NCBI GenBank assembly: GCA_964016885.1
Contig: OZ024743.1
Location: 141,174,001-141,238,000, forward strand
Source: Eledone cirrhosa
Taxonomy: Eukaryota
Length of the DNA: 64,000 bases
Direction: 5' to 3'
The position numbers and the translations under genes were made by a program. Of the stretch, positions 10,501-50,600 are shown piece after piece. Below the pieces are notes generated by a model, which was not told the DNA's origin, ran no database searches, and was given only the letters and a program-made list of their open reading frames with translations. The first letter of the stretch is position 1. Each line of letters opens with the position of its first letter.

Positions 10501-10899
10501 CCAAACACCAAACACCAAATAGCAAACACTAAACACCAAACACCAAATAGCAAACACAAAACACCAAATAGCAAATACCATACAGCAAACACCAAACACC
10601 AAACAGCAAACACCAAACACCAACCAGGAAACACCAAACACCAAGCACCAAACACCAAGCACCAAGCCCCAAGCACCAAACACCAAGCACCAAGCACCAA
10701 ACACCAAGCACCAAGCACCATGCACCAAACACCAAGCACCAAGCACCAAACAGCAAACAGCAAACAGCAAACACCAAACACCAAACACCAACCAGCAAAC
10801 ACCAAGCACCAAACACCAAACACCAAGCACCAAGCACCAAACACCAAACACCAAGCACCAAGCACCACACACCAAATACCAAGCACCAAGCACTAAACA

Positions 10900-16000: not shown

Positions 16001-16199
16001 CCAAGCTCCAAGCACCAAACACCAAACACGAAGCACCATGCACCAAGCACCAAGCACCAAACACCAAACACCAAGCACCAAGCACCAAACACCAAACACC
16101 AATCACCAATCACCATACACCAAGCACCAAGCACCAAACACCAAACACCAAGCACCAAACACCAAGCACCATGCACCAAGCACCAAGCACCAAGCACCA

Positions 16200-27100: not shown

Positions 27101-30100
27101 ATGCCAAACCCCAAGCGCCAAACACCAAAGACCAAGCGCCAAGCAACAAACACCAAACACCAAGCACCAAGCACCAAACACCAAACACCAAGCACCAAGT
27201 ACCAAACACCAAACACCAAGCACCAAACACCAAACAACAAACGCCAAAAAGCAAACGCCAAACCCCAAACGCCAAACAGCAAACGCCAAGGACCAAACAC
27301 CAAACACCAAGCGCCAAGCACCAAATACCAAACACCAAGCACCAAGCACCAAACACCAAACACCAAGGACCAATCACCTAACACCAAGCACCAAGCGCCA
27401 AACACCAAAAACCAAACACCTAGCACCAAGCACCAAGCACCAAACACCAAGCACCAAGCCCCAAGCACCAAACAGCAAGCACCCAGCACCATACACCAAA
27501 CACCAAGCACCAAGCACCCAGAACAAAGCACCAAGCACCAAACACCAAACACCAAGCTCCAAGCACCAAACACCAAACACCAAGCACCAAGCACCAAGCA
27601 CCAAGCACCAAACACCAAACACCAAGCACCAAGCACCAAACACCAAGCACCAAGCGCCAAACACCAAACACCAAACACCTAGCACCAAGCACCAAGCACC
27701 GAACACCAAGCACCAAACACCAAGCACCAAGCACCAAGCACCAAGCACCAAGCACCAAACACCAATCACCAAGCCCCAAGCACCAAACACCAAGCACCAA
27801 GCACCAAACACCAAACACCAAGCACCAAGCACCCAGAACCAAGCACCAAGCACCAAACACCAAACACCAAGCACCAAGCACCAAACACCAAACACCAAGC
27901 ACCAAGCACCAAGCACCAAGCACTAAACACCATACACCAAGCAACAAGCACCAATCACTAAACACTAAACACCAAGCACCAAGCACCAAACACAAACACC
28001 AAGCACCAAGTAACCAAACTCCAAACACCAAACACCAAGCACCAAGCACCAAATCCCAAGCACCAAACACCATTCACCATAAAACAAACACCAAACACCA
28101 AGCATGAAGCACCAAGCACCAAATACCAATCACCAAGCACCAAAGAGCAAACACCAAGCCCCAAGCACCAAACAGCAAACACCAAACACCAAACAGCAAA
28201 CACTAAACACCAAACACCAAAGAGCAAACACCAAACACCAAATAGCAAACACCAAACACCAACAAGGAAACACCAAACAGCAAACACCAAACAGCAAACG
28301 CCAAACAACAAACACAAACACCAAACACCAAACACCAAACACCAAGCACCAAGCACAAAACACCAAGCACCAAGCGCCAAGCACCAAACACCAAACACCA
28401 AACACCAAACACCAAACACCAATCACCAAACACCAGACACCAAACACCAAACAGCAAACACCAAACACCAAACAGCAAACACCAAACACCAAACACCAAA
28501 CAGCAAACACCAAACAGCAAACACCAAACAGCAAACAGCAAACAGCAAACAGCAAACACCAAACACCAAACACCAAGCACCAAGCAGCAAACACCAACAC
28601 CAAGCAACAAGCACCAATCACCAAGCACCAAGCACTAAACACCAAACACCTAGCACCAAGCACCAAGCACCAAACACCAAGCACCAAGCACCAAGCACCA
28701 AACACCAAGCACCAAAGACCAAGCCCCAAATACCAAGCACCAAGCACCAAACACCAATCACGAGGCACCAAGCACCAAACACCAAGAACCAAGCACCAAG
28801 CACTAAACACCAAACACCAAGCACCAAGCACCAAACACCAAGAACCAAGCACCAAGCGCAAACACCGAACACCAAGCACCAAGCACCAAACACCAAGCAC
28901 CAACCACCAAGCACCAAACACCAAGCACCAAGCACCAATCACCAAACACCAAGCACCAAGCACCAAACACCAAACATCAAGCACCAAGCACCAAACACCA
29001 AACTACAAGCACCAAGCACCAAACACCAAACACCAAGCACCAAGCACCAAGCACCAAGCACCAAACACCATACACCAAGCACCAAGCACCAAACACCAAA
29101 AACCAATCACCAAGCACCAAAGAGCAAACACCAAGCCCCAAGCACCAAACACCAAACACCAAACACCAAACAACAAACACTAAACAACAAACACCAAACA
29201 GCAAACACCAAACACCAAATAGCAAACACCAAACACCAACCAGGAAACACCAAACAGCAGACACCAAACAGCAATCGCCAAACAGCAAACACAAACAACA
29301 AACACCAAACAGCAAGCACCAAGCACCAAGCACAAAACACCAAGCACCAAACAGCAAACACCAATCACCAAACACCAGACACCAAACACCAAACAGCAAA
29401 CACCAAACACCAAACAGCAAACACCAAACACCAAACACCAAACAGCAAACACCAAACAGCAAACACCAAACACCAAACACCAAACACCAAGCACCAAGCA
29501 CCAAACACCAAGCACCAAGCAACAAACACCAATCACCAAGCACCAAGCACTAAAAACCAAACACCCAGCACCAAGCACCAAGCACCAAAGACCAAGCACC
29601 AAGCACCAAGCACCAAACACCAAGCACCAAAGACCAAGCCCCAAATACCAAGCACCAAGCACCAAACACCAATCACCAGGCACCAAGCACCAAACACCAA
29701 GAACCAAGCACCAAGCACTAAACACCAAATACCAAGCACCAAGCACCAAACTCCAAACACCAAGCACCAAGTACCAAACTCCAAACACCAAACACCAAGC
29801 ACCAAGCACCAAATCCCAAGCACCAAACACCAAGCACCAATCACCAAACACCAAACACCAAGCACCAAGCACCAAACACCAAAAACCAAGCACCAAGCAC
29901 CAAGCACCAAACACCAAACGCCAAACACCGAACACCAAGTACCAAGCGCCAAACACCAAGCACCAAGCGCCAAAGACCAAACACCAGGCACCGAGCACGA
30001 AACACCAAGCACCAAGCACCAAACACCAAGAACCAAGCACCAAACACCAGACAGCAAGCACCAAGCACCAAACACCATGCACCCAGAACCAAGCACCAAG

Positions 30101-33100
30101 CACCAAACACCAAACACCAAGCACCAAGCACCAAACACCAAACACCAAGCACCAAGCACCAAGCACCAAGCACCAAACACCATACACCAAGCACCAAGCA
30201 CCAAACACCAAAAACCAATCACCAAGCACCAAAGAGCAAACACCAAGCCCCAAGCACCAAACACCAAACACCAAACACCAAACAACAAACACTAAACACC
30301 AAACAACAAACAGCAAACACCAAACACCAAATAGCAAACACCAAACACCAACCAGGAAACACCAAACAGCAAACACCAAACAGCAAACGCCAAACAGCAA
30401 ACACAAACACCAAACACCAAACACCAAGCACCAAGCACCAAGCACAAAACACCAAGCACCAAGCACCAAGCACCAAACACCAAACACCAAACACCAAACA
30501 GCAAACACCAATCACCAAATACCAGACACCAAACACCAAACAGCAAACCCGAAACAGCAAACACCAAACAGCAGACACCAAACAGCAAACACCAAACAGC
30601 AAACACCAAACACCAAACACCAAACACCAAGCACCAACCACCAAACACCAAGCACCAAGCAACAAACACCAATCACCAAGCACCGAGCACTAAAAACCAA
30701 ACATCTAGCACCAAGCACCAAGCACCAAACACCAAGCACCAAGCACCAAGCACCAAACACCAAGCACCAAAGACCAAGCCCCAAATACCATGCACCAAGC
30801 ACCAAACACCAATCACCAGGCACCAAGCACCAAACACCAAGAACCAAGCACCAAGCACTAAACACCAAATACCAAGCACCAAGCACCAAACACCAAACAC
30901 CAAGCACGAAGTACCAAACTCCAAACACCAAACACCAAGCACCAAGCACCAAATCCCAAGCACCAAACACCAAGCACCAAGCACCAAACACCAAAAACCA
31001 AGCACCAAGCACCAAGCACCAAACACCTAACGCCAAACACCGAAAACCAAGTACCAAGCACCAAACACCAAGCACCAAGCGTCAAAGACCAAACACCTAG
31101 CACCAAGCACGAAACACCAAGCACCAAGCACCGAGCACCAAACACCAAGTACCAGGCACCAATCACCAAACACCAAGAACCAAGCACCAAACACCAGACA
31201 GCAAGCACCAAGCACCAAACACCAAACTCCAAGCACCAAGCACCAAACACCAAGCACCAAGCGCCAAAGACCAAACACCAGGCACCAAGCACGAAACACC
31301 AAGCACCAAGCACCAAACACCAAGAACCAAGCACCAAACACCAGACAGCAAGCACCAAGCACCAAACACCAAACACCAAGCACTAAGCACCAAACACCAA
31401 GCACCAAGCGCCAAACACCAAACACCAAGCACCAAGCACCAAACACCAAGCACCAACCACCAAGCACCAAAGACCAAGCACCAAGCACCAAACACCAAGC
31501 ACCAATCACCAAACAGCAAGCACCAAGCACCAAACACCAAACACCAAGCACCAAGCACCAAACACCAAGCACCAAGCACCAAACACCAAGCACCAAGCAC
31601 CAAACACCAAAAACCAATCACCAAGCACCAAAGAGCAAACACCAAGCCCCAAGCACCAAACACCAAACACCAAACACCAAATAGCAAACACTAAACACCA
31701 AACACCAAACAGCAAACACAAAACAGCAAATAGCAAATACCAAACAGCAAACACCAAACAGCAAACAGCAAACACCAAACACCAACCAGGAAACACCAAA
31801 GACCAAGCACCAAACACCAAGCACCAAGCACCATGCACCAAACACCAAGCACCAAGCACCAAACAGCAAACACCAAACAGCAAACACCAAACACCAAACA
31901 CCAACCAGCAAACACCAAACACCAAACACCAAACAGCAAACACCAAACAGCAAACACCAAACAGCAAACACCAAACACCAAACACGAAACACCAAACGCC
32001 AAAAAGCAAACGCCAAACCCCAAACGCCAAACAGCAAATGCCAAACCCCAAACGCCAAACAGCAAACGCCAAGCGCCAAACACCAAAGACCAAGCGCCAA
32101 GCAACAAACACCAAACACCAAGCACCAAGCACCAAACACCAAACACCAAGCACCAAGTACCAAACACCAAACACCAAGCACCAAACACCAAACAGCAAAC
32201 GCCAAAAAGCAAACGCCAAACCCCAAACGCCAAACAGCAAACGCCAAGGACCAAACACCAAACACCAAGCGCCAAGCACCAAATACCAAACACCAAGCAC
32301 CAAGCACCAAACACCAAGCACCAAGCGCCAAACACCAAACACCATACACCTAGCACCAAGCACCAAGCACTAAACACCAAGCACCAAGCCCCAAGCACCA
32401 AATAGCAAGCACCCAGCACCATACACCAAACACCAAGCACCAAGCACCCAGAACAAAGCACCAACCACCAAACACCAAACACCAAGCTCCAAGCACCAAA
32501 CACCAAACACCAAGCACCAAGCACCAAGCACCAAGCACCAAACACCAAACACCAAGCACCAAGCACCAAACACCAAGCACCAAGCGCCAAACACCAAACA
32601 CCTAGCACCAAGCACCAAGCACCGAACACCAAGCACCAAACACCAAGCACCAAGCACCAAGCACCAAGCACCAAGCACCAAACACCAATCACCAAGCCCC
32701 AAGCACCAAACACCAAGCACCAAGCACCAAACACCAAACACCAAGCACCAAGCACCCAGAACCAAGCACCAAGCACCAAACACCAAACACCAAGCACCAA
32801 GCACCAAACACCAAACACCAAGCACCAAGCACCAAGCACCAAGCACCAAACACCATGCACCAAGCACCAAGCACCAAACACCAAAAACCAATCACCAAGC
32901 ACCAAAGAGCAAACACCAAGCCCCAAGCACCAAACACCAAACACCAAACAGCAAACACTAAACACCAAACACCAAACAGCAAACACCAAACAGCAAATAG
33001 CAAACACCAAACACCAACCAGGAAACACCAAACAGCAAACACCAAACAGCAAACGCCAAACAGCAAACACAAACACCAAACACCAAGCACCAAGCACCAA

Positions 33101-36100
33101 GCACAAAACACCAAGCACCAAGCGCCAAGCACCAAACACCAAACACCAAACACCAAACACCAAACACCAATCACCAGACACCAGACACCAAACACCAAAC
33201 AGCAAACACCAAACACCAAACAGCAAACACCAAACACCAAACACCATGCACCCAGAACCAAGCACCAAGCACCAAACACCAAACACCAAGCACCAAGCAC
33301 CAAACACCAAACACCAAGCACCAAGCACCAAGCACCAAGCACCAAACACCATACACCAAGCACCAAGCACCAAACGCCAAAAACCAATCACCAAGCACCA
33401 AAGAGCAAACACCAAGCCCCAAGCACCAAACACCAAACACCAAACACCAAACAACAAACACTAAACACCAAACACCAAACAGCAAACACCAAACACCAAA
33501 TAGCAAACACCAAACACCAACCAGGAAACACCAAACAGCAAACACCAAACAGCAAACGCCAAACAGCAAACACAAACACCAAACACCAAACACCAAGCAC
33601 CAAGCACCAAGCACAAAACACCAAGCACCAAGCGCCAAGCACCAAACACCAAACACCAAACACCAAACAGCAAACACCAATCACCAAATACCAGACACCA
33701 AACACCAAACAGCAAACACCAAACACCAAACAGCAAACACCAAACACCAAACACCAAACAGCAAACACCAAACAGCAAACACCAAACAGCAGACACCAAA
33801 CAGCAAACACCAAACAGCAAACACCAAACACCAAACACCAAACACCAAGCACCAACCACCAAACACCAAGCACCAAGCAACAAACACCAATCACCAAGCA
33901 CCGAGCACTAAAAACCAAACATCTAATACCAAGCACCAAGCACCAAACACCAAGCACCAAGCACCAAGCACCAAACACCAAGCACCAAAGACCAAGCCCC
34001 AAATACCAAGCACCAAGCACCAAACACCAATCACCAGGCACCAAGCACCAAACACCAAGAACCAAGCACCAAGCACTAAACACCAAATACCAAGCACCAA
34101 GCACCAAACACCAAACACCAAGCACCAAGTACCAAACTCCAAACACCAAACACCAAGCACCAAGCACCAAATCCCAAGCACCAAACACCAAGCACCAATC
34201 ACCAAACACCAAACACCAAGCACCAAGCACCAAACACCAAAAACCAAGCACCAAGCACCAAGCACCAAACACCTAACGCCAAACACCGAAAACCAAGTAC
34301 CAAGCACCAAACACCAAGCACCAAGCGTCAAAGACCAAACACCTAGCACCAAGCACGAAACACCAAGCACCAAGCACCGAGCACCAAACACCAAGTACCA
34401 GGCACCAATCACCAAACACCAAGAACCAAGCACCAAACACCAGACAGCAAGCACCAAGCACCAAACACCAAACTCCAAGCATGAAGCACCAAACACCAAG
34501 CACCAAGCGCCAAACACCAAACACCAAGCACCAAGCACCAAACACCAAGCACCAACCACCAAGCACCAAACACCAAGCACCAAGCACCAAACACCAAGCA
34601 CCAATCACCAAACAGCAAACACCAAGCACCAAACACCAAACACCAAGCACCAAGCACCAAACACCAAGCACCAAGCACCAAACACCAAGCACCAAGCACC
34701 AAACACCAAAAACCAATCACCAAGCACCAAAGAGCAAACACCAAGCCCCAAGCACCAAACACAAAACACCAAATACCAAATAGCAAACACTAAACACCAA
34801 ACACCAAACAGCAAACACAAAACAACAAATAGCAAATACCAAACAGCGAACACCAAACACCAAACAGCAAACACCAAACACCAACCAGGAAACACCAAAG
34901 ACCAAGCACCAAACACCAAGCACCAAGCCCCAAGCACCAAACACCAAGCACCAAGCACCAAACACCAAGCACCAAGCACCAAGCACCATGCACCAAACAC
35001 CAAGCACCAAGCACCAAACAGCAAACACCAAACAGCAAACACCAAACACCAAACACCAACCAGCAAACACCAAACACCAAACACCAAACAGCAAACACCA
35101 AACAGCAAACACCAAACAGCAAACACCAAACACCAAACACCAAACACCAAACGCCAAAAAGTAAACGCCAAACCCCAAACGCCAAACAGCAAATGCCAAA
35201 CCCCAAGCGCCAAACACCAAAGACCAAGCGCCAAGCAACAAACACCAAACACCAAGCACCAAGCACCAAACACCAAACACCAAGCACCAAGTACCAAACA
35301 CCAAACACCAAGCACCAAACACCAAACAACAAACGCCAAAAAGCAAACGCCAAACCCCAAACGCCAAACAGCAAACGCCAAGGACCAAACACCAAACACC
35401 AAGCGCCAAGCACCAAATACCAAACACCAAGCACCAAGCACCAAACACCAAACACCAAGGACCAATCACCTAACACCAAGCACCAAGCGCCAAACACCAA
35501 AAACCAAACACCTAGCACCAAGCACCAAGCACCAAACACCAAGCACCAAGCCCCAAGCACCAAACAGCAAGCACCCAGCACCATACACCAAACACCAAGC
35601 ACCAAGCACCCAGAACAAAGCACCAAGCACCAAACACCAAACACCAAGCTCCAAGCACCAAACACCAAACACCAAGCACCAAGCACCAAGCACCAAGCAC
35701 CAAACACCAAACACCAAGCACCAAGCACCAAACACCAAGCACCAAGCGCCAAACACCAAACACCAAACACCTAGCACCAAGCACCAAGCACCGAACACCA
35801 AGCACCAAACACCAAGCACCAAGCACCAAGCACCAAGCACCAAGCACCAAACACCAATCACCAAGCCCCAAGCACCAAACACCAAGCACCAAGCACCAAA
35901 CACCAAACACCAAGCACCAAGCACCCAGAACCAAGCACCAAGCACCAAACACCAAACACCAAGCACCAAGCACCAAACACCAAACACCAAGCACCAAGCA
36001 CCAAGCACCAAGCACTAAACACCATACACCAAGCAACAAGCACCAATCACTAAACACTAAACACCAAGCACCAAGCACCAAACACAAACACCAAGCACCA

Positions 36101-37121
36101 AGTACCAAACTCCAAACACCAAACACCAAGCACCAAGCACCAAATCCCAAGCACCAAACACCATTCACCATAAAACAAACACCAAACACCAAGCATGAAG
36201 CACCAAGCACCAAATACCAATCACCAAGCACCAAAGAGCAAACACCAAGCCCCAAGCACCAAACAGCAAACACCAAACACCAAACAGCAAACACTAAACA
36301 CCAAACACCAAAGAGCAAACACCAAACACCAAATAGCAAACACCAAACACCAACAAGGAAACACCAAACAGCAAACACCAAACAGCAAACGCCAAACAAC
36401 AAACACAAACACCAAACACCAAACACCAAACACCAAGCACCAAGCACAAAACACCAAGCACCAAGCGCCAAGCACCAAACACCAAACACCAAACACCAAA
36501 CACCAAACACCAATCACCAAACACCAGACACCAAACACCAAACAGCAAACACCAAACACCAAACAGCAAACACCAAACACCAAACACCAAACAGCAAACA
36601 CCAAACAGCAAACACCAAACAGCAAACACCAAACAGCAAACAGCAAACACCAAACACCAAACACCAAGCACCAAGCAGCAAACACCAACACCAAGCAACA
36701 AGCACCAATCACCAAGCACCAAGCACTAAACACCAAACACCTAGCACCAAGCACCAAGCACCAAACACCAAGCACCAAGCACCAAGCACCAAACACCAAG
36801 CACCAAAGACCAAGCCCCAAATACCAAGCACCAAGCACCAAACACCAATCACGAGGCACCAAGCACCAAACACCAAGAACCAAGCACCAAGCACTAAACA
36901 CCAAACACCAAGCACCAAGCACCAAACACCAAGAACCAAGCACCAAGCGCAAACACCGAACACCAAGCACCAAGCACCAAACACCAAGCACCAACCACCA
37001 AGCACCAAACACCAAGCACCAAGCACCAATCACCAAACACCAAGCACCAAGCACCAAACACCAAACATCAAGCACCAAGCACCAAACACCAAACTACAAG
37101 CACCAAGCACCAAACACCAAA
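20914..37121 (+). repeat. Near-identical tandem duplication of an ~8092-bp higher-order unit (copy 1 ~20914-29005, copy 2 ~29006-37097)
   Basis: Identical ORF translations at a constant offset of 8092 (21015/29107, 23599/31691, 24763/32855, 27766/35858), then 8091 after a 1-bp indel at ~28012 (28130/36221). The rare variant AACTACAAG occurs at 29001 and 37092. Confidence 0.95.
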
Positions 37122-39987
37122 TACCAAGCACCAAGCACCAACCACCAAGCACCAAACACCAAGAACCAAGCACCAAGCACCAAACACCAAGCACCAAATA
37201 CCAAGCACCAGACGCGAAGCACCAAGCACCAAGCACCAAAAACCAAGCACCAAGCTCCAAGCACCAAACACCAAGCACCAAACAACAAACACCAAGCACC
37301 AAGCACCAAACACCAAGCACCAAGCGCCAAAAACCAAACAATAAGCACCAAGCACCAAATACCAAGCACCAAGCACCAAGCACCAAGCACCAAACACCAA
37401 ACACCAAACACCAAACAGCAAACAGCAAACACCAAACACCAAACACCAAACAGCAAACGCCAAACATCAAACGCCAAACACCAAACGCCAAACAGCAAAC
37501 GCCAAACACCAAACGCCAAACAGCAAGCGCCAAGCACGAAACGCCAAACACCAAACACCAAGCACCAAACACTAGACACCTAGCACCAAGCACCAAACAC
37601 CAAACACCAAGCACCAAGCACTAAACGCCAAACACCAAGCGCCAAGCACCAAGCACCAAACACCAAGCACCAAGCACCGAGCACCAAACACCAAACACCG
37701 AGCACCAAGCACCAAGCACCAAACACCAAGCCCCAAGCACCAAACACCAACCAGCAAACACCAAACACCAAACACTAAAAAGCAAACACCAAACAGCAAA
37801 CACCAAACAGAAACACCAAACACCAAACACCAAACAGCAAACGCCAAGCACCCAACGCCAAACAGCAAACGCCATACCCCAAACGCCAAGCACCAAACAC
37901 CGAACACCAAGCACCAAGCACCAAACACCAAACACCAAGCACCAATCACCAAGCACCAAACACCAATCATCAAGCCCCAAGCACCAAACACCAAGCGTCA
38001 AGCACCAAACACCAAACACCAAGCACCAAGCACCCAGAACCAAGCACCAAGCACGAAACACCAAACACCAAGCACCAAGCACCAAACACCAAATACCAAG
38101 CACCAAGCACCAAACAGCATACACCAAGCACCGAGCACCAAACACCAAAAACCAATCACCAAGCACCAAAGAGCAAACACCAAGCCCCAAGCACCAAACA
38201 CCAAACACCAAACACCAAACACTAAACAGCAAACACCAACCAGCAAACACCAAACAGCAAACACCAAACAGCAAACGCCAAACAGCAAACACAAACACCA
38301 AACACCAAACAACCAAACACCAAGCACCAAACACCAAACACCAATCACCAGGCACCAAGCACAAAACACCAAGCACCAAGCTCCAAACACCAAACACCAA
38401 GCACCAACCACCAAGCACCAAGCACAAAGCACCAAGCACCAAACACAAAACACCAAGTACCAGTCACCAAGCACCAAACACCAAACACCAAACACCAAAC
38501 ACCAAACAGCAAACACTAAACACCAAACACAAAACACCAAACACCAAACAGCAAACACCAAACACCAAACAGCAAACACCAAACACCAAACACCAAACAG
38601 CAAACACCAAACAGCAAACACCAAACAGCAAACACCAAACAGCAAACAGCAAACACCCAACACCAAACGCAAAGCACCAAGCACCAAACACCAAGCACCA
38701 AGCAACAAGCACCAATCACCAAGCACCAAGCCCTAAACACCAAACACCAAGCACCAAGCACCAAGCACCAAACACCAAGCACCAAGCACCAAGAACCAAA
38801 CGCCAAGCCCCAAGCACCAAACACCAAGCACCAAGCACCAAGCACCAAGCACCAAAAACCAAGCACTAAGGACCAAGCACCACACACCAAGGACCAAGCA
38901 CCAAACACCAAACACCAAGCACCAAGCACTAAACACCAAACACCAAGCACCAAGCACCAAACACCAAACACCAAGCACCAAGTACCAAACTCCGAACACC
39001 AAACACCAGGCACCAAGCACCAAGAACCAAGCAGCAAACACCAAACACCAAGCACCAAGCACCAAACACCAAACACCAAGCACCAAGCACCAGACACCAA
39101 ATACCAAGCACCAAGCACTAAACACCAAACACCAAACACCAAGCACCAAGCACTAAACACCAAACACCAAGCACCAAGTACCAAACTCCGAACACCAAAC
39201 ACCAGGCACCATGTACCAAGAACCAAGCAGCAAACACCAAACAGCAAGCACCAAGCACCAAGCACCAAACACCAAACACCAAACACCAAGCACCAAGCAC
39301 CAAACACCAAGCACCAAGCGCCAAAGACCAAACACCAAGCACCAAGCATGAAACACCAAGCACCAAGCACCGAGCACCAAACACCAAGTACCAAGCACCA
39401 ATCACCAAACACCAAGAACCAAGCAGCAAACACCAAACACCAAGCACCAAGCACCAAACACCAAACACCAAGCACCAAGCACCAAACACCAATTACCAAG
39501 CACCAAGCACTAAACACCAAACACCAAGCACCAAGCACCAAGCATCATGCACCAAGCACCAAACACCAAGCACCAAGCACCAAGCACCAAGCACCAAACA
39601 CAAAACACCAAGTACCAAGCACCTACCACAAAACACCAAACACCAAACACCAAGCACCAGACACCAAGCACCAAGCACTAAGCACCAAGCACCAAAAACC
39701 AAGCACCAAGCTCCAAGCACCAAACACCAAGCACCAAGCACCAAACACCAAACACCAAGCACCAACCACCAAACACCAAATACCAAGCACCAAGCACCAG
39801 GCACCAAGCACCAAATACCAAGCACCAAGCACCAAGCACCAAGCACCAGACACCAAGCACCAAGCACCAAGCACCAAAAACCAAGCACCAAGCTCCAAGC
39901 ACCAAACGCCAAGCACCAAACACCAAGCAGCACCAAGCACCAAACACCAAGCACCAAGCACCAAACACCAAGCACCAAGCACCAAAT

Positions 39988-40027
39988 ACCAAGCACCAAG
40001 CACCAAGCTTGGTGCTTGGTGCTTGGT
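39988..40027. other. Strand-switch (inversion) junction: perfect 40-bp spacer-less palindrome centred on AAG|CTT (40005-40010)
   Basis: ACCAAGCACCAAGCACCAAG|CTTGGTGCTTGGTGCTTGGT. The first mismatch is at 39987 (T) versus 40028 (G). Confidence 0.97.
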
Positions 40028-41299
40028 GCTTGGTGTTTGGTGCTTGGTGCTTGGTGCTTGGTGTTTGGTGCTTGGTGCTTGGTGCTTGCTCTTTGGTGGT
40101 TGCTGTTTGGTGCTTGGTGTTTGGTGCTTGGTGCTTGGTGCTGGGTGGTTGGTGTTTGGTGCTTGGTGCTTGGTGTTTGGTGCTTGGTGCTTGGTGCTTG
40201 TTGTTTGGTGCTTGGTGCTTGGTCTTTGGTGCTTGGTGTTTGGTGTTTGGTGATTGGTGCTTGGTGCTTGGTGCTTGGTGTTTGGTGCTTGGTGCTTGGT
40301 GATTAGTGTTTGGTGCTTGGTGCTTGGGGTTTGGTGTTTTGTGCTTAGTGCTTGGTGTTTGGTGTTTGGTGTTTGCTGTTTGCTGTTTGGTGTCTGCTTT
40401 TTGGTATTTGGTGTTTGCTGTATGGTGTTTGCTGTTTCGTATTTGGTGTTTGCTGTTTGGTGTTTGGTGTTTGGTGTTTGGTGCTTGGTGTTTGGTGCCT
40501 GGTGCTTGGTGTTTGGCGTTTGGTGTTTGGTGTTTGGTGCTTGGTGCCTGGTGCTTGTTGTTTCGTGTTTGGTACTTGGTGCTTGGTGTTTGGTGTTTGG
40601 TGTTTGCTGTTTGGTGTCTGCTTTTTGGTATTTGGTGTTTGCTGTATGGTGTTTGCTGTTTCGTATTTGGTGTTTGCTGTTTGGTGTTTGGTGTTTGGTG
40701 TTTGGTGCTTGGTGTTTGGTGCCTGGTGCTTGGTGCTTGGTGTTTGGTGTTTGGTGTTTGGTGCTTGGTGCCTGGTGCTTGTTGTTTGGTGTTTGGTACT
40801 TGGTGCTTGTTGTTTGGTGTTTGGTGTTTGGTGTCTGGTGTTTGGTGCTTGGTGTTTGGTGTTTGGTGCTTGGTGCTTGGTGTTGGTGTTTGGTGTTTGG
40901 TGCTTGGTGCTTGGTGTTTTGTGTTTGGTGCTTAGTGCTTGGTGTTTGGTGTTTGGTGCTTGGTGTTTGGTGTTTGGTGTTTGATGCTTGGTTTTTGCTG
41001 CTTGGTGCTTGGTGCTTGGTGCTTGGTGTTCTGTGTTTGGTGCTTGATGCTTGGTGCCTGGTGCTTGGTGCTTGGTGCTTGTTGTTTGGTGCTTGGTGCT
41101 TGGTGATTAGTGTTTGGTGCTTGGTGCTTGGTGTTTGGTGTTTGGTGTTTCGTGCTTGGTGTCTAGTGTTTGGGTTTTGGTGTTTGGTGCTTGGTGCTTG
41201 GTGTTTGGTGTTTGGTGCTTGGTGCTTGGTGTTTGGTGATTGGTGCTTGGTGTTTGGTGCTTGGTGCTTTGTGCTTGGTGTTTGGTGCTGGGTGCTTGG

Positions 41300-44200
41300 T
41301 GTTTGGTGCTTGGTGCTTGGTGTTTGGTGTTTGGTGCTTGGTACTTGGTGTTTGGTGTGTGATGCTTGGTGTTTGATGCTTGTTGCTTGGTGCTTGGTGT
41401 TTTGTGTTTGGTGTTTGGTGCTTGGTGTATGTACTTGGTGCTTGGTGCTTGGTGTTTGGTGCTTGGTTCTTGGTGTTTGGTGCTTGGTGCTTGGTGCTTG
41501 GTGTTTGGTGCTTGGTGCTTGGTGTTTGGTGCTTGGTGTTTGGTGTTTGGTGCTTGGTGTTTGGTGCTTGGTGCTTGGCGCTTGGTGTTAAGTGTTTGGT
41601 GCTTGGTGCTTGGTGTTTGGTGCTTCGTGCTTGGTGCTTGGTGTTTGGTGCATGGTGCTTGGTGTTTGGGGCTTGGTGCCTGGTGCTTTGTGTTTGGTGC
41701 TAGGTGCTTGGTGCTTGGTCTTTGGTGTTTGGTGCTTGGTGCTTGGTGTTTGGTGCTAGGTGTTTGGTGCTTGGTGTTCGGTGCTTGGTGCTTGGTGCTT
41801 GGTGCTTGGTGTTAGGTGTTTGGTGCTTGGTGCTTGGTGTTTGATGTTTGGTCCTTGGTGCTTGGTGTTTGGTGTTTGGTGCTTGGTGCTTGGTGTTTCG
41901 TGTTTGGTGCTTGCTGCTTGCTGCTTGGTGTTTGGTGCTTGGTGATTGGTGCTTGGTGTTTGGTGATTGGTGCTTGGTGTTTGGTGTTTCGTGCTATGTG
42001 CTTGGTGCTTGGTGCTTGGTGTTTGGTGCTTGGTGCTTGGTGTTTGGTGTTTGGTGCTTGATGCTTGGGGCCTGGTGTTTGGTGCTTGGTGCTTGGTGCT
42101 TGGTGTTTGGTGCTTGGTGCTTGGTGCTTGGTGTTTGGTGTTTGGTGTTTGGTGCTTGGTGTTTTGTGCTTGGTGCTTGTTGCTGGGTGGTTGGTGTTTG
42201 GTGCTTGGTGCTTGGTGTTTGGTGCTTGGTGCTTGGTGCTTATTGTTTGGTGATTGGTGCTTGGTGCTTGGTGCTTGGTGTTTGGTGTTTGGTGTTTGGT
42301 GTTTGGTGCTTGGTGCTTGGTGCTTGGTGTTTGGTGCTTGGTGTTTGGTGCTTGGTGCTTGGTGCTTGGTTATTAGTGTTTGGTGCTTGGTGCTTGGGGT
42401 TTGGTGTTTGGTGCTTGGTGTTTGGTGTTTGGTGTTTGCTGTATGGTGTTTGCTGTTTCGTGTTTGGTGTTTGCTGTTTGGTGTTTAATGCTTGGTGCTT
42501 GGTGCTTGGTGTTTGGTGCTTGGTGTTTGGTGTTTGGCGTTTGCTGTTTGCTGTTTGTTGTTTGGTGCTTGCTGTTTGGTGCTTGGTGCTTGGTGCTGGT
42601 TAGTTGGTGTTTGGTGCTTGGTGCTTGGTGTTTGGTGCTTGGTGCTTGGTGCTTGTTGTTTGGTGCTTGGTGTTTGGTGTTTGGTGCTTGGTGCTTGGTG
42701 CTTGGTGTTTGGTGCTTGGTGCTTGGTGCTTGGTGTTTGGTGGTTGGTGCTTGGTGATTTGTGTTTGGTGCTTGATGCTTGGGGTTTGGTGTTTTGTGCT
42801 TAGTGCTTGGTGTTTGGTGTTTGCTGTTTGGTGTCTGCTTTTTGGTATTTGGTGTTTGCTGTATGGTGTTTGCTGTTTCGTATTTGGTGTTTGCTGTTTG
42901 GTGTTTGGTGTTTGGTGTTTGGTGCTTGGTGTTTGGTGCTTGGTGCTTGGTGTTTGGCGTTTGGTACTTGGTGCTTGGTGTTTGGTGCTTGGTGCTTGGT
43001 GTTTGGTGTTTGGTGCTTGGTGTTTGGTGTTTGGTGCTTGGTACTTGGTGTTTGGTGTGTGAAGCTTGGTGATTGATGCTTGTTGCTTAGTGCTTGGTGT
43101 TTGCTGTTTGGTGTTTGGTGCTTGGTGTATGTACTTGGTGCTTGGTGCTTGGTGTTTGGTGCTTGGTTCTTGGTGTTTGGTGCTTGGTGCTTGGTGCTTG
43201 GTGTTTGGTGCTTGGTGCTTGGTGTTTGGTGCTTGGTGTTTGGTGTTTGGTGCTTGGTGTTTGGTGCTTGGTGCCTGTTGCTTGGTGTTAAGTGTTTGGT
43301 GTTTGGTGCTTGGTGTTTGGTGCATGGTGCTTGGTGTTTGGGGCTTGGTGCCTGGTGCTTTGTGTTTGGTGCTAGGTGTTTGGTACTTGGTGTTCGGTGC
43401 TTGGTGCTTGGTGCTTGGTGCTTGGTGTTAGGTGTTTGGTGCTTGGTGCTTGGTGTTTGATGTTTGGTCCTTGGTGCTTGGTGTTTGGTGTTTGGTGCTT
43501 GGTGCTTGGTGTTTCGTGTTTGGTGCTTGCTGCTTGCTGCTTGGTGTTTGGTGCTTGGTGATTGGTGCTTGGTGCTTGTTGCTTGGTGCTTGGTGTTTGG
43601 TGCTTGGTGCTTGGTGTTTGGTGTTTGGTGCTTGGTGCTTGGGGCTTGGTGTTTGGTGCTTGGTGTTTGGTGCTTGGTGTTTGGTGCTTGGTGCTTGGTG
43701 CTTGGTGTTTGGTGTTTGGTGTTTGGTGCTTGGTGTTTTGTGCTTGGTGCTTGTTGCTGGGTGGTTGGTGTTTGGTGCTTGTTGCTTGGTGTTTGGTGCT
43801 TGGTGCTTGGTGCTTATTGTTTGGTGATTGGTGCTTGGTGCTTGGTGCTTGGTGTTTGGTGCTTGGTGCTTGGTGCTTGGTGTTTGGTGCTTTGTGCTTG
43901 GTGCTTGGTTATTAGTGTTTGGTGCTTGGTGCTTGGGGTTTGGTGTTTGGTGCTTGGTGTTTGGTGTTTGGTGTTTGCTTTATGGTGTTTGCTGTTTCGT
44001 GTTTGGTGTTTGCTGTTTGGTGTTTAATGCTTGGTGCTTGGTGCTTGGTGTTTGGTGCTTGGTGCTTGGTGTTTGGAGTTTGCTGTTTGCTGTTTGGTGT
44101 TTGGTGCTTGCTGTTTGGTGCTTGGTGCTTGGTGCTGGTTGGTTGGTATTTTGTGCTTGGTGCTTGGTGTTTGGTGCTTGGTGCTTGGTGCTTGTTGTTT

Positions 44201-44470
44201 GGTGCTTGGTGCTTGGTCTTTGGTGCTTGGTGTTTGGTGTTTGGTGCTTGCTGCTTGGTGCTTGGTGTTTGGTGCTTGGTGCTTGGTGCTTGGTGTTTGG
44301 TGGTTGGTGCTTGGTGATTAGTGTTTGGTGCTTGATGCTTGGGGTTTGGTGTTTTGTGCTTAGTGCTTGGTGTTTGGTGTTTGCTGTTTGGTGTCTGCTT
44401 TTTGGTATTTGGTGTTTGCTGTAAGGTGTTTGCTGTTTCGTATTTGGTGTTTGCTGTTTGGTGTTTAGTG
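41300..44470 (-). repeat. Right-arm diverged duplication with a ~1.5-1.7 kb period
   Basis: Similar ORFs 41366/43066 (offset 1700), 41760/43376 (1616) and 42380/43919 (1539), with visibly more substitutions than the 47.7-58 kb layer. Confidence 0.75.
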
Positions 44471-47400
44471 TTTGGTGTTTGGTGTTTGGTGCTTGGTGCT
44501 TGGTGCTTGGTGTTTAGTGTTTGGTGTTTGGTGCTTGGTGTTTGGTGCTTGGTGCTTGGTGCTGGGTGGTTGGTGTTTGGTGCTTGGTGCTTGGTGCTTG
44601 GTGTTTGGTGCTTGGTGCTTGGTGCTTGTTGTCTGGTGCTTGGTGCTTGGTGCTTGGTCTTTGGTGCTTGGAGTTTGGTGGTTGGTGCTTGGTGCTTGGT
44701 GTTTGGTGTTTGGTGTTTGCTGTTTGGTGTTTGCTGTTTGGTGTCTGCTTTTTGGTGTTTGGTGTTTGCTGTATGGTGTTTGCTGTTTCGTATTTGGTTT
44801 ATGCTGTTTGGTGTTTGGTGTTTGTTGTTTGATGCTGCGTGCTTGGTGTTTGGTGTTTGGTGCTTTGTGCTTGGTGCTTGGTGTTTGGCGCTTGGTGCTT
44901 GGTGTTTGGTGCTTGGTGCTTGGTGCTTGGTGTTTGGTGTTTGGTGCTTGGTGCCTGGTGCTTGTTGTTTGGTGTTTGGTGCTTAGTGCTTGGTGTTTGG
45001 TGTTTGGTGCTTGGTGCTTGGTGGCTGGTGGTTGGTGCTTGTTGTTTGGTGTTTGGTGTTTGGTGCTTGGTGCTTGGTGCCTGGTGTTTGGTGCCTGGTG
45101 CTTGGTGCTTGTTGTTTGGTATTTGGTGCTTGGTGTTTGGTGTTTGGTACTTGGTGCTTGGTGCTTGGTGCTTGGTGTTTGGTCCTTGGTGCTTGGTGCT
45201 TGGTCTTTGCTGCTTGGGGTTTGGTGTTTGGTGCTTGGTGCTTGGTGTTTGGTGCCTGGTGCTTGGTGCTTGGTGTTTAGTGTTTAATGCTTGGTGCTTG
45301 GTGCTTGGTGTTTGGTACTTGGTGCTTGGTGCTTGGTGTTTGGTGTTTGGTGTTTGGTGTTTGGTGTTTGCTGTTTGCTGTTTGGTGCTTGCTGTTTGGT
45401 GTTTGGTGTTTGGTGTTTGGTGTTTGGTGTTTGCTGTTTGCTGTATGGTGTTTGCTGTTTCGTATTTGGTTTTTGCTGTTTGGTGTTTGGTGTTTGCTGT
45501 TTGGTGTTTAGTGTTTGGTGCATGGTCCTTGGTGTTTGTTGTTTGGTGCTTGGTGCTTGGTGTTTGGTGTTTGGTGTTTGGTGCCTGGTGCTTGGTGTTT
45601 GGTGCTTGGTGCTTGGTGCTGGGTGTTTGTTGCTTGGTGCTTGGTGTTTGGTGCTTGGTGCTTGGTGCTTGGTGCTTGGTGCTTGGTGTTTGGTCCTTGG
45701 TGCTTGGTGCTTGGTCTTTGGTGCTTGGGGTTTGGTGTTTGGTGCTTGGTGCTTGGTGTTTGGTGGTTGGTGGTTGGTGCTTGGTGTTTGGTGTTTGGTG
45801 CTTGCTGCTTGGTGCTTGGTGTTTGATGCTTGGTGCTTGGTGTTTGGTGTTTGGTGCTTGGTGCGTGGGACTTGGTGTTTGGTGGTTGGTGTTTGGTGCT
45901 TGGTGTTTGGTGCTTGGTGCTTGGTGCTTGGTGTTTGGTGTTTGATGTTTGCTGCCTGGTGCTTGGTGTTTTGTGTTTGGAGTTTGGTGCTTGGTGTTTG
46001 GTGCTTCGGTCTTGGTGCTTGGTGTTTGGTGCTTGGTGCTTGGTGTTTGGTGCTTCGTGCCTGGTGTTTGGTGTTTGGTGCTTGGTGCTTGGTGTTTGGT
46101 GATTGGTGCTTGGTGTTTGGTGCTTGGTGCTTGGTGCTTGGTGCTTGGTGTTAGGTGTTTGGTGCTTGATGCTTGGTGTTTGTTGTTTGGTCCTTGGTGC
46201 TTGGTGTTTGGTGCTTGGTGCTTGGTGATTGGTGTTTGGTGTTTGGTGCTTGCTGCTTGCTGCTTGGTGTTTGGTGCTTGGTGATTGGTGCTTGGTGTTT
46301 TGTGCTTGGTGCTTGGTGTTTGGTGTTTGGTGCTAGGGGCTTGGTGCTTGGTGCTTGGTGTTTGGTGCTTGGTGCTTGCTGTTTGTTGTTTGGTGCTTGG
46401 TGCGTGGGACTTAGTGTTTGATGTTTGGTGCTTGGTGTTTGGTGCTTGGTGTTTGGGGCTTGGTGTTCGGTGCTTGGTGCTTGGTGCTTGGGGCTTGGTG
46501 TTTGGTGTTTGGTGCTAGGTGCTTGGTGTTTGATGTTGGGTCCTTGGTGCTTGGTGTTTGGTGTTTGGTGCTTGGTTTTTGGTGTTTGGTGCTTGGTGCT
46601 TGATGTTTGGTGTTTGGTGCTTGGTGCTTGGGGCTTGGTGTTTGGTGCTTGGTGCTTGGTGTTTGGTGTTTGGTGCTTGGTGCTTGGGGCTTGGTGTTTG
46701 GTGCTTGGTGCTTGGTGCTTGGTGTTTAGTGTTTGGTGTTTGGTGCTTGGTGTTTGGTGCTTGGTGCTTGGTGCTGGGTGGTTGGTGTTTGGTGCTTGGT
46801 GCTTGGTGTTTGGTGCTTGGTGCTTGGTGCTTGTTGTTTGGTGCTTGGTGCTTGGTGCTTGGTCTTTGGTGCTTGGAGTTTGGTGGTTGGTGGTTGGTGC
46901 TTGGTGTTTGGTGTTTGGTGTTTGCTGTTTGGTGTTTGCTGTTTGGTGTCTGCTTTTTGGTGTTTGGTGTTTGCTGTATGGTGTTTGCTGTTTCGTATTT
47001 GGTTTTTGCTGTTTGGTGTTTGGTGTTTGCTGCTTGGTGTTTGGTGTTTGGTGTTTGGTGCTTTGTGCTTGGTGCTTGGTGTTTGGCATTTGGTGCTTGG
47101 TGCTTGGTGTTTGGTGCTTGGTGCTTGGTGTTTGGTGTTTGGTGCTTGGTGCCTGGTGCTTGTTGTATGCTGTTTGGTGCTTGGTGCTTGGTGTTTGGTG
47201 TTTGCTGCTTGGTGTCTGGTGTTTGGTGCTTGGTGTTTGGTGTTTGGTGCTTGGTGCTTGGTGCTTGGTATTTGGTGTTTGATGCTTGGTGCTTGGTGAT
47301 TGTTGTTTGGTGCTGGGTGCTTGGAGTTTGGTGCTTGGTGCTTGGTGCTTAGTGCTTGGTGTTTGGTGTTTGGGGCTTGGTGTTGGGTGTTTGGTGTTTG

Positions 47401-47699
47401 ATGCTTGGTGTGTGCTGCTTGGTGCTTGGTGCTTGGTGTTTTGTGTTTGGTGCTTGGTGCTTGGTGCCTGGTGCTTGGTGCTTGGTGCTTGTTGTTTGGT
47501 GCTTGGTGCTTGGTGATTAGTGTTTGGTGCTTGGTGCTTGGGGTTTGCTGTTTGGTGCTTGGTGCTTGGTGTTTGGTGCTTGGTGCTTGGTGTTTGGTGT
47601 TTGGTGCTTGGTGCTTGGTGTTTGGGTTTTGGTGCTTGGTGCTTGGTGTTTGGTGTTTGGTGCTTGGTGTTTGGTGCTTGGTGTTTGGTGCTGAGTGCT

Positions 47700-50600
47700 T
47701 GGTGTTTGGTGTTTGACGCTTGGTGTTTGATGCTTGTTGCTTGGTGCTTGGTGTTTTGTGTTTGGTGTTTGGTGCTTGGTGTATGTACTTGGTGCTTGGT
47801 TCTTGGTGTTTGGTGCTTGGTTCTTGGTGTTTGGTGATTGGTGCTTGGTGCTTGGTGTTTGGTGCTTGGTGCTTGGTGTTTGGTACTTGGTGCTTGGTGT
47901 TTGGTTTTTGATGCTTGGTGTTTGATGCTTGGTGCTTGGTGCTTGGTGTTAAGTGTTTGGGGCTTGGTGCTTGGTGCATGGTGCTTGGTGTTTGGTGCTT
48001 GGTGCCTGGTGCTTGGTGTTTGGTGCTTGGTGCTTGGTGCTTGGTGTTTGGTGCTTGGTATTTGGTGCTTGGTGCTTGGTGTTTGGTGCTTGGTGTTTGG
48101 TGCTTGGTGTTCGGTGCTTGGTGCTTGGTGTTTGGTGCTTGGTGTTAGGTGATTGGTGCTTGGTGCTTGGTGTTTGATGTTTGATCCTTGGTGCTTGATG
48201 TTTGGTGCTTGGTGCTTGGTGTTTGGTGTTTGGTGCTTGCTGCTTGCTGCTTGGTGTTTGGTGCTTGGTGATTGGTGCTTGGTGTTGGGTACTTGGTGCT
48301 TGTTGTTTGGTGTTTGGTGCTAGGTGCTTGGTGCTTGGTGCTTGGGGTTTGGTGCTTGGTGCTTGGTGTTTGGTGTTTGGTGCTTGGTGCTTGGGGCTTG
48401 GTGTTTGGTGCTTTGTGCTTGGTGCTTGTTGTTTGGTGCTTGGTGCTTGGTGCTTCGTGTTTGGTGTTTGGTGTTTGGTGCTTGGTGTTTGGTGCTTGGT
48501 GCTTGGTGCTGGGTGGTTGGTGTTTGGTGCTTGGTGCTTGGTGTTTGGTGCTTGGTGCTTGGTGCTTGTTGTTTGGTGCTTGGTGCTTGGTGCTTGGTCT
48601 TTGGTGCTTGGAGTTTGGTGGTTGGTGCTTGGTGCTTGGTGTTTGGTGTTTGGTGTTTGCTGTTTGGTGTTTGCTGTTTGGTGTCTGCTTTTTGGTGTTT
48701 GGTGTTTGCTGTATGGTGTTTGCTGTTTCGTATTTGGTTTTTTCTGTTTGGTGTTTGGTGTTTGCTGTTTGGTGTTTGGTGTTTGGTGTTTGGTGCTTTG
48801 TGCTTGGTGCTTGGTGTTTGGCATTTGGTGCTTGGTGCTTGGTGTTTGGTGCTTGGTGCTTGGTGTTTGGTGTTTGGTGCTTGGTGCCTGGTGCTTGTTG
48901 TATGCTGTTTGGTGCCTGGTGCTTGGTGTTTGGTGTTTGGTGTTTGGTGCTTGGTGTCTGGTGTTTGGTGTTTGGTGTTTGGTGCTTGCTGCTTGGTGTT
49001 TGGGTTTTGGTGCTTGGTGCTTGGTGTTTGGTGTTTGGTGCTTGGTGTTTGGTGCTTGGTGTTTGGTGCTGAGTGCTTGGTGTTTTGTGCTTGGTGCGTG
49101 GTGCTTGGTGTTTGGTGTTTGGTGCTTGGTGCTTGGTGTTTGGTGTTTGATGCTTGGTGTTTGATGCTTGTTGCTTGGTGCTTGGTGTTTTGTGTTTGGT
49201 GTTTGGTGCTTGGTGTATGTACTTGGTGCTTCGTTCTTGGTGTTTGGTGCTTGGTTCTTGGTGTTTGGTGATTGGTGCTTGGGGCTTGGTGTTTGGTGCT
49301 TGGTGCTTGGTGTTTGGTACTTGGTGCTTGGTGTTTGGTTTTTGATGCTTGGTGTTTGATGCTTGGTGCTTGGTGCTTGGTGTTAAGTGTTTGGGGCTTG
49401 GTGCTTGGTGCTTGGTGTTTGGTGCTTGGTATTTGGTGCTTGGTGCTTGGTGTTTGGTGCTTGGTATTTGGTGCTTGGTGTTCGGTGCTTGGTGCTTGGT
49501 GTTTGGTGCTTGGTGTTAGGTGATTGGTGCTTGGTGCTTGGTGTTTTATGTTTGATCCTTGGTGCTTGGTGTTTGGTGCTTGGTGCTTGGTGTTTGGTGT
49601 TTGGTGCTTGGTGCCTGGTGCTTGTTGTATGCTGTTTGGTGCTTGGTGTTTGGTGTTTGGTGTTTGCTGCTTGTTGTCTGGTGTTTGGTGCTTGGTGTTT
49701 GGTGTTTGGTGCTTGGTGCTTGGTGCTTGGTATTTGGTGTTTGGTGCTTGGTGCTTGGTGTTTGTTGTTTGGTGCTGGGTGCTTGGAGTTTGGTTCTTGG
49801 TGCTTGGTGCTTAGTGCTTGGTGTTTGGTGTTTGGTGCTTGGTGTTGGGTGTTTGGTGTTTGATGCTTGGTGTGTGCTGCTTGGTGCTTGGTGCTTGGTG
49901 TTTTTTGTTTGGTGCTTGGTGCTTGGTGCCTGGTGCTTGGTGCTTGGTGCTTGTTGTTTGGTGCTTGGTGCTTGGTGATTAGTGTTTGGTGCTTGGTGCT
50001 TGGGGTTTGCTGTTTGGTGCTTGGTGCTTGGTGTTTGGTGTTTGGTGTTTGGTGCTTGGTGTCTGGTGTTTGGTGTTTGGTGTTTGGTGCTTGGTGCTTG
50101 GTGTTTGGGTTTTGGTGCTTGGTGCTTGGTGTTTGGTGTTTGGTGCTTGGTGTTTGGTGCTTGGTGTTTGGTGCTGAGTGCTTGGTGTTTTGTGCTTGGT
50201 GCGTGGTGCTTGGTGTTTGGTGTTTGGCGCTTGGTGCTTGGTGTCTGGTGTTTGATGCTTGGTGTTTGATGCTTGTTGCTTGGTGCTTGGTGTTTTGTGT
50301 TTGGTGTTTCGTGCTTGGTGTATGTACTTGTTGCTTGGTTCTTGGTGTTTGGTGCTTGGTTCTTGGTGTTTGGTGATTGGTGCTTGGTGCTTGGTGTTTG
50401 GTGCTTGGTGCTTGGTGTTTGGTATTTGGTGCTTGGTGTTTGGTTTTTGATGCTTGGTGTTTGATGCTTGGTGCTTGGTGCTTGGTGTTTAAGTGTTTGG
50501 GGCTTGGTGCTTGGTGCATGGTGCTTGGTGTTTGGTGCTTGGTGCCTGGTGCTTGGTGTTTGGTGCTTGGTGCTTGGTGCTTGGTGTTTGGTGCTTGGTA

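What the first reader, a model, noticed from the sequence alone, without database searches (positions are those of the whole stretch)
39988..40027. Seamless, spacer-less strand switch inside a satellite array
Seen: the array flips from CACCAAG to CTTGGTG with no inserted bases, no transposon remnant and no loss of register, giving a perfect 40-bp palindrome. The switch sits at the only self-complementary dinucleotide of the consensus repeat (the GC at the G|C monomer boundary). Inference: a template switch, fold-back or microhomology-mediated join at that GC produced the inversion. Established: spacer-less palindromes can extrude cruciforms and are often fragile, so persistence of this junction is notable.
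Basis: partly seen in the sequence, partly recalled or inferred. Interest (0 to 1): 0.8.

Follow-up and report, generated by a model that had tools for sequence, protein, structure and literature searches.

The report
One satellite strand flip, copied elevenfold
The spacer-less strand flip is in the assembly and is one of eleven near-identical copies of a single junction in a 14.6-million-base repeat array; it likely arose once and was then multiplied by large duplications, much like the conserved flip points described in beetle satellite DNA.

Summary
Observation confirmed: the window is all 7-bp satellite (CACCAAG/CACCAAA), flips strand at 40007|40008 and has a perfect 40-bp palindrome. It is not a lone event. 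The same junction, with the same two unlike flanks, occurs 11 times on contig C4 (130.4-142.9 Mb): 9 intact, 1 point-mutated, 1 with a ~500-bp asymmetric central deletion. Ten copies pair with an opposite-type junction (B) 105-256 kb away, bounding a block of a distinct satellite subfamily. Copies carry private changes (mostly 0.2-1%). The arms are not mirror images, so this is no kilobase fold-back, and A and B do not rejoin as reciprocal inversion breakpoints. A 20-bp perfect arm is expected in 6% of in-register joins. Both independent head-to-head junction families sit at G|C (chance about 5e-4), which supports the GC idea in part; the five tail-to-tail junctions show no 2-bp GC microhomology where resolved. 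Most likely: one end-joining or template-switch event, then amplification inside megabase macro-repeats. New member of a known kind (Tribolium conserved inversion sites, human HSat3 strand switches).

The parts
1..40007 (+). C-rich arm: right end of the ~180-kb inverted 'block' subfamily of the 7-bp satellite (rich in CAGCAAA, CGCCAAA/G, GAGCAA; kb-scale higher-order periods 8092, 5513, 1504)
   Evidence: the block starts at junction B, G000:C4:141,034,458
40008..64000 (-). G-rich arm: 'background' subfamily of the same satellite on the opposite strand (rich in CATCAAA, CACCAGG, CAACAAG; periods 2966, 1211, 3884)
39988..40027 (.). perfect 40-bp palindrome around junction A; a single strand is predicted to fold at -22.7 kcal/mol, and 39938-40077 at -81.6 with a one-monomer slip
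40005..40010 (.). junction A core AAGCTT (switch at 40007|40008); same junction 11 times on C4
39830..40007 (+). the only part of the left flank that the window's copy shares with the other copies; further left this copy is rearranged on the same strand (approximate start)
43062..43067 (.). second AAGCTT site, about 3 kb from the junction, present at copy-specific distances in most copies; handle for a restriction test

Best explanation
This junction is one of 11 copies of a single head-to-head join between two different subfamily domains of a 7-bp satellite; it likely formed once by end-joining or a template switch using at most 2 bp of microhomology at the G|C boundary, and was likely multiplied passively when a megabase unit carrying it was duplicated. 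Shown: 11 copies with the same unlike flanks, 10 of them paired with junction B across a 105-256-kb block, 9 pairs direct and 1 inverted. Inferred: B is the novel joint of a first tandem duplication that spanned A (it joins background to block, and block continuous with background on one strand still exists elsewhere); unequal exchange or break-induced replication then spread the B-block-A-background unit at 0.4-1.9-Mb spacing, other joins (C-G) flipped parts of it, and local repeat turnover changed the block lengths. The 40-bp palindrome would be a by-product of joining near-identical monomers in register; it is only mildly fragile, with one of 11 copies losing its centre by an asymmetric ~500-bp deletion.
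For: 9 exact copies of the 28-bp core, all on C4 130.4-142.9 Mb, same asymmetric flanks, 7 direct and 2 flipped; a point-mutant and a deleted copy. Junction B: 9 copies by pattern plus 1 variant; B-to-A lengths 226, 256, 163, 105, 185, 156, 191, 187, 180 and 235 kb. Block and background differ in variant monomers. Parents of A and B do not rejoin; A-left and B-right belong to one family, A-right and B-left to the other. Same-strand background-to-block transitions at 140.0 and beyond 142.89 Mb, and like sequence at 142.41 and 205.39 Mb. Nearly all copies carry private substitutions and the pattern is star-like; the flipped 134.53/134.76 pair shares variants with 130.44/130.21. Founder joins show 0-2 bp microhomology and no foreign sequence: C GC, E GT, B C, A C or GC, G none, F none or unclear, D unresolved. 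One substitution in 400 palindrome cells against 1.2 expected from flanks (about 0.6 if seven alignment-artefact sites in one copy are dropped).
Against: No reads were laid on the junction; the run search used 600 bp and is not junction-specific. The array is scaffolded: a 200-N gap lies at 137.41 Mb, so unit order and some copies (136.17 and 138.93 share variants and are each followed by junction G) could be allelic duplicates. The order A-then-B is inferred, not dated. The G half of the microhomology at A is not confirmed. The four monomers right of the centre differ from the nearest parents at two monomers, and a slipped 70-bp mirror has only 3 mismatches (P=0.0175), so a short fold-back tract is not excluded. 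The array was sampled (about 1.2 Mb of satellite held), not read whole; the switch count is a lower bound.
Confidence: 0.72

Rival explanations
1. The palindrome was made by a short fold-back: the left arm's 3' end snapped back, copied 20-28 bases of itself, then jumped to the background template. Amplification afterwards as in the best explanation.
For: The perfect arm stops exactly at the left arm's TACCAAG variant; the four monomers right of the centre are plain CACCAAG, unlike the nearest parents; slipped mirror P=0.0175.
Against: The T variant is not mirrored; monomers 5-14 of the right arm follow their own higher-order repeat; arms of 20 bp or more arise by chance in 5.7% of in-register joins; family C has the same register with only a 1-bp perfect arm.
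Confidence: 0.12
2. A and B are the two breakpoints of one in-place inversion of the block, blurred by later deletions, and the whole was then amplified.
For: 10 of 11 A copies have a B partner bounding the same block.
Against: Uninterrupted parents of B-left do not continue into A-left, nor B-right into A-right; scores 174-175 against chunk medians of 216-227. The copy at 142.89 Mb has no B and stays on one strand in all probes to the array end.
Confidence: 0.08
3. Assembly artefact: a misjoin or a read fold-back chimera made the switch, and false duplication made the copies.
For: Gaps exist inside the array; no read-level check was made; some copy pairs are close enough to be alleles.
Against: Chimeric fold-back gives mirror arms, which are absent. 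Eleven copies in both orientations, with private substitutions, indels, a point mutant and a central deletion, cannot come from one misjoin or from two haplotypes alone. No N in the window or in the 10-kb stretches around the other copies.
Confidence: 0.03
4. The B-block-A cassettes are kept by selection as structural or centromeric elements (hairpin, cruciform or loop anchors), as proposed for Tribolium macro-dyads.
For: Recurrent cassette of a minor subfamily in opposite orientation inside a major one; lengths 105-256 kb, like the ~200-kb spacing of inverted centroids in cichlid centromeres (PMC13652916, abstract); 9 of 11 palindromes intact.
Against: Conservation is no greater than in the flanks; one copy lost the centre and one is mutated; no satellite hit on C1-C3 for the one 42-bp motif tried (first 100 of 159 rows), so it is not a genome-wide centromeric repeat; no chromatin data.
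Confidence: 0.05

Closest known systems
Tribolium freemani TfSat01 inversion segments and T. madens TmSat1/TmSat2 macro-dyad symmetries (PMC12581902, passages; PMC13081366, passages and first part of Discussion)
   Same: A few junction types, no extraneous sequence between the opposed monomers, each type conserved at 95-99.9% in many copies; a minor family embedded in a major one as a cassette with fixed borders.
   Different: There: long monomers, subarrays of kb to tens of kb, thousands of sites on many chromosomes, loops of 9-27 bp, mostly two-subarray symmetric arrays. Here: a 7-bp repeat, one chromosome, 11 copies, 0.1-0.26-Mb blocks in megabase units, zero spacer, and arms from different subfamilies.
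Strand switches in human HSat3B5 and beta satellite; polymorphic 1.7-Mb inversion in the chr1 alpha HOR (10.1101/2021.07.12.452052, passages)
   Same: Over 200 inversion breakpoints inside large satellite arrays, including a simple-sequence one.
   Different: The passages read do not describe junction sequences or whether switches descend from few founders; here 29 direct switches trace to 7 founders.
Cichlid centromeres with four alternating satellite blocks and inverted centroids (PMC13652916, abstract and outline only)
   Same: Alternating orientation blocks with about 200-kb spacing.
   Different: There a ~15-kb element lies at the switches, one pair per centromere; here no element at A or B and ten pairs.
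Asymmetric central deletion of palindromic junctions in transgene concatemers (PMC8701086, passages)
   Same: The 131.69-Mb copy lost about 77 bp left and 425 bp right of the centre.
   Different: There most inverted junctions are deleted and arms are identical; here arms are about 80% alike and 9 of 11 centres are intact.

Membership tests
Conserved spacer-less satellite inversion site (Tribolium type) | No foreign sequence between opposed monomers | tested here: met
Conserved spacer-less satellite inversion site (Tribolium type) | Few junction types, each in many near-identical copies | tested here: met
   A x11, B x10, C x3, G x2, D, E, F x1; mostly 0.2-1% apart
Tribolium macro-dyad symmetry | Opposed subarrays of the same satellite, roughly symmetric, on many chromosomes | tested here: not met
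   arms are different subfamilies and unequal; junction and motif hits only on C4 in the rows listed
Tribolium macro-dyad symmetry | Confirmed on raw long reads; (peri)centromeric position | not testable with these tools
   no reads laid; no chromatin data
Fold-back palindrome (breakage-fusion-bridge or chimeric read) | Arms are mirror copies for kilobases | tested here: not met
   9 of 12,722 70-mers shared; ungapped mirror identity about 40% beyond 100 bp
Simple reciprocal inversion | The two breakpoints rejoin into uninterrupted parents | tested here: not met
Microhomology-guided join | Shared bases present in both parents at the join | tested here: inconclusive
   left parent C confirmed; right parent G in only 2 of 18 closest homologues; family C shows GC on both sides
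Fragile cruciform-forming palindrome | Excess of central lesions over non-palindromic junctions | tested here: inconclusive
   central deletion in 1 of 11 A against 0 of 15 B, C and G copies, Fisher p=0.42; substitutions 1 observed, 0.6-1.2 expected
Cichlid centroid structure | A transposon-like element of about 15 kb at the switches | tested here: not met
   direct satellite-to-satellite joins at A and B

The most novel reading that the evidence does not exclude
Outside Tribolium, a simple 7-bp satellite has built a row of ten megabase-spaced cassettes, each an inverted 0.1-0.26-Mb subfamily block closed by a perfect cruciform-capable palindrome, and these cassettes set the centromere or loop architecture of this chromosome.
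Probability: 0.06. Interest if true: 0.72.

Novelty: new member of a known kind. Interest (0 to 1): 0.33.

Why it matters
Strand switches in satellites are often counted as independent inversions. Here 29 direct switches trace to 7 founder joins, so most are copies, and counts overstate inversion rates. The 11 sister copies of one palindrome, beside 15 copies of less palindromic joins in the same array, form a natural test of how fragile a 40-bp spacer-less palindrome is in a germ line: 9 intact, 1 mutated, 1 centrally deleted. A 2026 paper (PMC13081366) says array-scale dyad symmetries were documented only in Tribolium; this is a partly similar case in another genome. Nothing here shows a function.

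Tried and rejected
Seamless reciprocal TTGGTG|CACCAA: 0 hits. Kilobase fold-back: rejected. Target-site-like duplication between B-left and A-right: a shared motif exists but is an ordinary higher-order-repeat motif; the direct alignment was uninformative. First substitution-density and register simulations were flawed (end effects, loose pattern) and were redone. Run search: 60 bases held too few sampled words; 600 bases gave 20 of 24 rows holding part of the stretch, best 0.65-0.69 of 54 words in three runs of one sample, which may be the source, and 0.2-0.3 in marine metagenomes: not junction-specific, not used as evidence. Literature searches for the satellite's heptamers found nothing (0 papers); this covers only the library held. 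Earlier scan notes: none for this genome. A loose head-to-head search listed no new satellite junction on C4, but 74 of 174 rows on later contigs were not shown. Parents of D could not be resolved. AAGCTT is not unique to the junction. Supplements of the cited papers were not opened; junction alignments there may bear on the comparison.

Full report
Observation. The window is entirely a 7-bp satellite, mainly CACCAAG and CACCAAA, about 83% homogeneous. It is C-rich to 40007 and G-rich from 40008, with a one-step flip of both skews. The centre reads CACCAAG|CTTGGTG, and 39988-40027 is the only perfect palindrome in the window, arm 20 bp. There is no N and no foreign base.

The arms are not mirror copies. 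Ungapped mirror identity is 81% for 100 bp and about 40% beyond. The arms have different higher-order periods and share 9 of 12,722 70-mers. They differ in variant monomers: the left arm is rich in CAGCAAA, CGCCAAA/G and GAGCAA, the right in CATCAAA, CACCAGG and CAACAAG. This excludes a kilobase fold-back and a fold-back chimeric read. The 20-bp arm needs no special cause: random in-register G|C joins between these two subfamilies give 13 bp or more in 22% and 20 bp or more in 5.7% of 200,000 trials.

The junction is multi-copy. The window is G000:C4:141,174,001-141,238,000 in a 3.0-Gb assembly; C4 is 378.8 Mb. The 28-bp core occurs 9 times, all on C4 between 130.4 and 142.9 Mb, each with the same two unlike flanks, 7 in one orientation and 2 flipped. 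A wider pattern added a copy with T>A near the centre (138.93 Mb) and one with the centre deleted (131.69 Mb). The latter lost about 77 bp left and 425 bp right of the centre by the colinear alignment (an alternative placement gives about 655 right). That makes 11 copies of junction A. Over 2-kb arms most pairs differ by 0.2-1% plus a few indels; some pairs read 1-5% where an arm is rearranged, and the window's own left arm departs from the others beyond about 170-220 bp. In 4-kb arms nearly all copies have private substitutions and shared ones are few.

The array and its other switches. Probing places the array at 128.823-143.422 Mb. It is not strictly continuous: other repeats interrupt it at 140.036-140.137 and near 142.45 Mb, and a 200-N gap lies at 137.41 Mb. 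A tail-to-tail junction B (TTTG|CACCCAA) occurs 10 times; each lies 105-256 kb from an A, and where sampled the two bound the left-arm subfamily. Other direct joins are C (head-to-head, 3 copies), G (2 copies) and single D, E and F. In all, 29 direct switches trace to 7 founders, and two more switches pass through other repeats or the gap. This is a lower bound: the array was sampled, about 1.2 Mb of satellite held. The trio C'-B-A at 130.02-130.44 Mb recurs inverted as A'-B'-C at 134.53-134.98 Mb, and those copies share variants.

A and B are not clean reciprocals. No seamless TTGGTG|CACCAA exists. Uninterrupted parents of B's arms do not continue into A's arms; the reciprocal pairs score 174-175 against chunk medians of 216-227, while A-left groups with B-right and A-right with B-left. 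Block sequence continues into background on one strand at 140.0 Mb and beyond the last, B-less copy at 142.89 Mb, with like sequence at 142.41 and 205.39 Mb. The simplest reading (inference) is that A came first, and B is the new joint of a tandem duplication spanning A. Unequal exchange then needs no new joints to multiply the unit.

The GC idea. Both head-to-head founders read G|C in register: A, and C (CACCAAG|CCTGGTG). A phase-random blunt join reads so in 2.3% of trials, two of two about 5e-4 (post hoc). For C the parents show GC on both sides, the right one by a weak match; for A the left parent continues with C, but 16 of 18 closest parents of the right arm have A where G is needed. Tail-to-tail joins show 1 bp (B, C), 2 bp (E, GT), none (G), none or unclear (F) and unresolved (D). 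Random joins give 2 bp or more in 2.7%. So short microhomology probably helped, GC being the commonest 2-bp overlap between the strands, but it is not required. Joins with 0-2 bp overlap and no insert fit end-joining or template switching (established knowledge). A very short fold-back tract is not excluded: a slipped 70-bp mirror has 3 mismatches, P=0.0175.

Fragility. A single strand is predicted to fold at -22.7 kcal/mol over 40 nt and -81.6 over 140 nt, more than at C (-53.6), B (-42.1) or the deleted copy (-62.7); any strand switch folds far better than shuffles, so the z-scores say little. One of 11 A copies lost its centre against 0 of 15 B, C and G copies (p=0.42), and substitutions in the 40 bp number 1 against 0.6-1.2 expected. 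The deletion has the asymmetric form reported for palindromic transgene junctions (PMC8701086, passages), but the data show neither unusual fragility nor protection.

Artefact. Not tested on reads. The run search on 600 bp is not junction-specific. Against an artefact stand unlike arms, 11 diverged copies in both orientations, decayed derivatives and no N near any copy (only 2 loci hold N). Some copies may still be allelic duplicates placed in tandem.

Comparison. T. freemani has six conserved inversion types with no intervening sequence, 95-99.9% alike across copies (PMC12581902, passages). T. madens has thousands of conserved inversion sites and a cassette-like minor satellite, and the authors state that macro-dyads are documented only in that genus (PMC13081366, passages and first part of Discussion). 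Human HSat3B5 and beta satellite hold over 200 strand switches (10.1101/2021.07.12.452052, passages). Cichlid centromeres have alternating blocks about 200 kb apart with an element at the switches (PMC13652916, abstract). The finding is a new member of the conserved spacer-less inversion-site kind, not a Tribolium-type symmetric macro-dyad. The satellite itself was not found in print by heptamer searches.

Verdict. Real in the assembly and very probably in the genome; ordinary in kind; of modest interest because the copies expose how few founder events underlie many switches and allow a test of palindrome stability. Interest 0.33.

Noticed in passing
L145:1313-7037 (G000:C4 about 128.816-128.822 Mb): Six tRNA-Arg genes in tandem (five TCG, one GCG), and a further decayed-looking copy near 7683, lie just left of the array's first monomer.
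   Followed up: partly
G000:C4:140.036-140.137 Mb (L184, L185, L203, L218); similar near 137.41 (L237); non-satellite also at 142.45 Mb (L247): About 100-kb island of other repeats inside the array: a ~6.1-kb composite unit with an 11-12-bp A-rich repeat that itself switches strand, and a second satellite with an ATTATCTCCCC motif.
   Followed up: partly
G000:C4:205.36-205.42 Mb (L190, L226-L228): A piece of about 55 kb of the same satellite, 60 Mb from the main array, starts right at a 200-N gap and resembles the 140.0- and 142.41-Mb segments; possibly a misplaced contig.
   Followed up: partly
L174:5533-10000 (G000:C4 about 100.0 Mb): A different satellite with 20-, 38- and 58-bp periods containing TTGGTGACACAG.
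   Followed up: no
G000:C4:134.43-134.98 Mb (L158, L010, L159, L168, L137): A, E, A', B', C form a large imperfect inverted duplication centred on junction E, with 35 and 59 kb to the nearest A copies; E has a GT microhomology.
   Followed up: partly
many places on C1-C5: A dispersed 28-bp quasi-palindrome, CACCAAGCA...TGTTTGGTG with an AT-rich spacer, recurs dozens of times, probably inside a transposon; it carries both satellite monomers head to head.
   Followed up: no
L066:1350-1700 (G000:C1 about 186.05 Mb): GC-rich, coding-like stretch that looks by eye like a LINE reverse-transcriptase region; chance hit of a pattern search, not tested.
   Followed up: no
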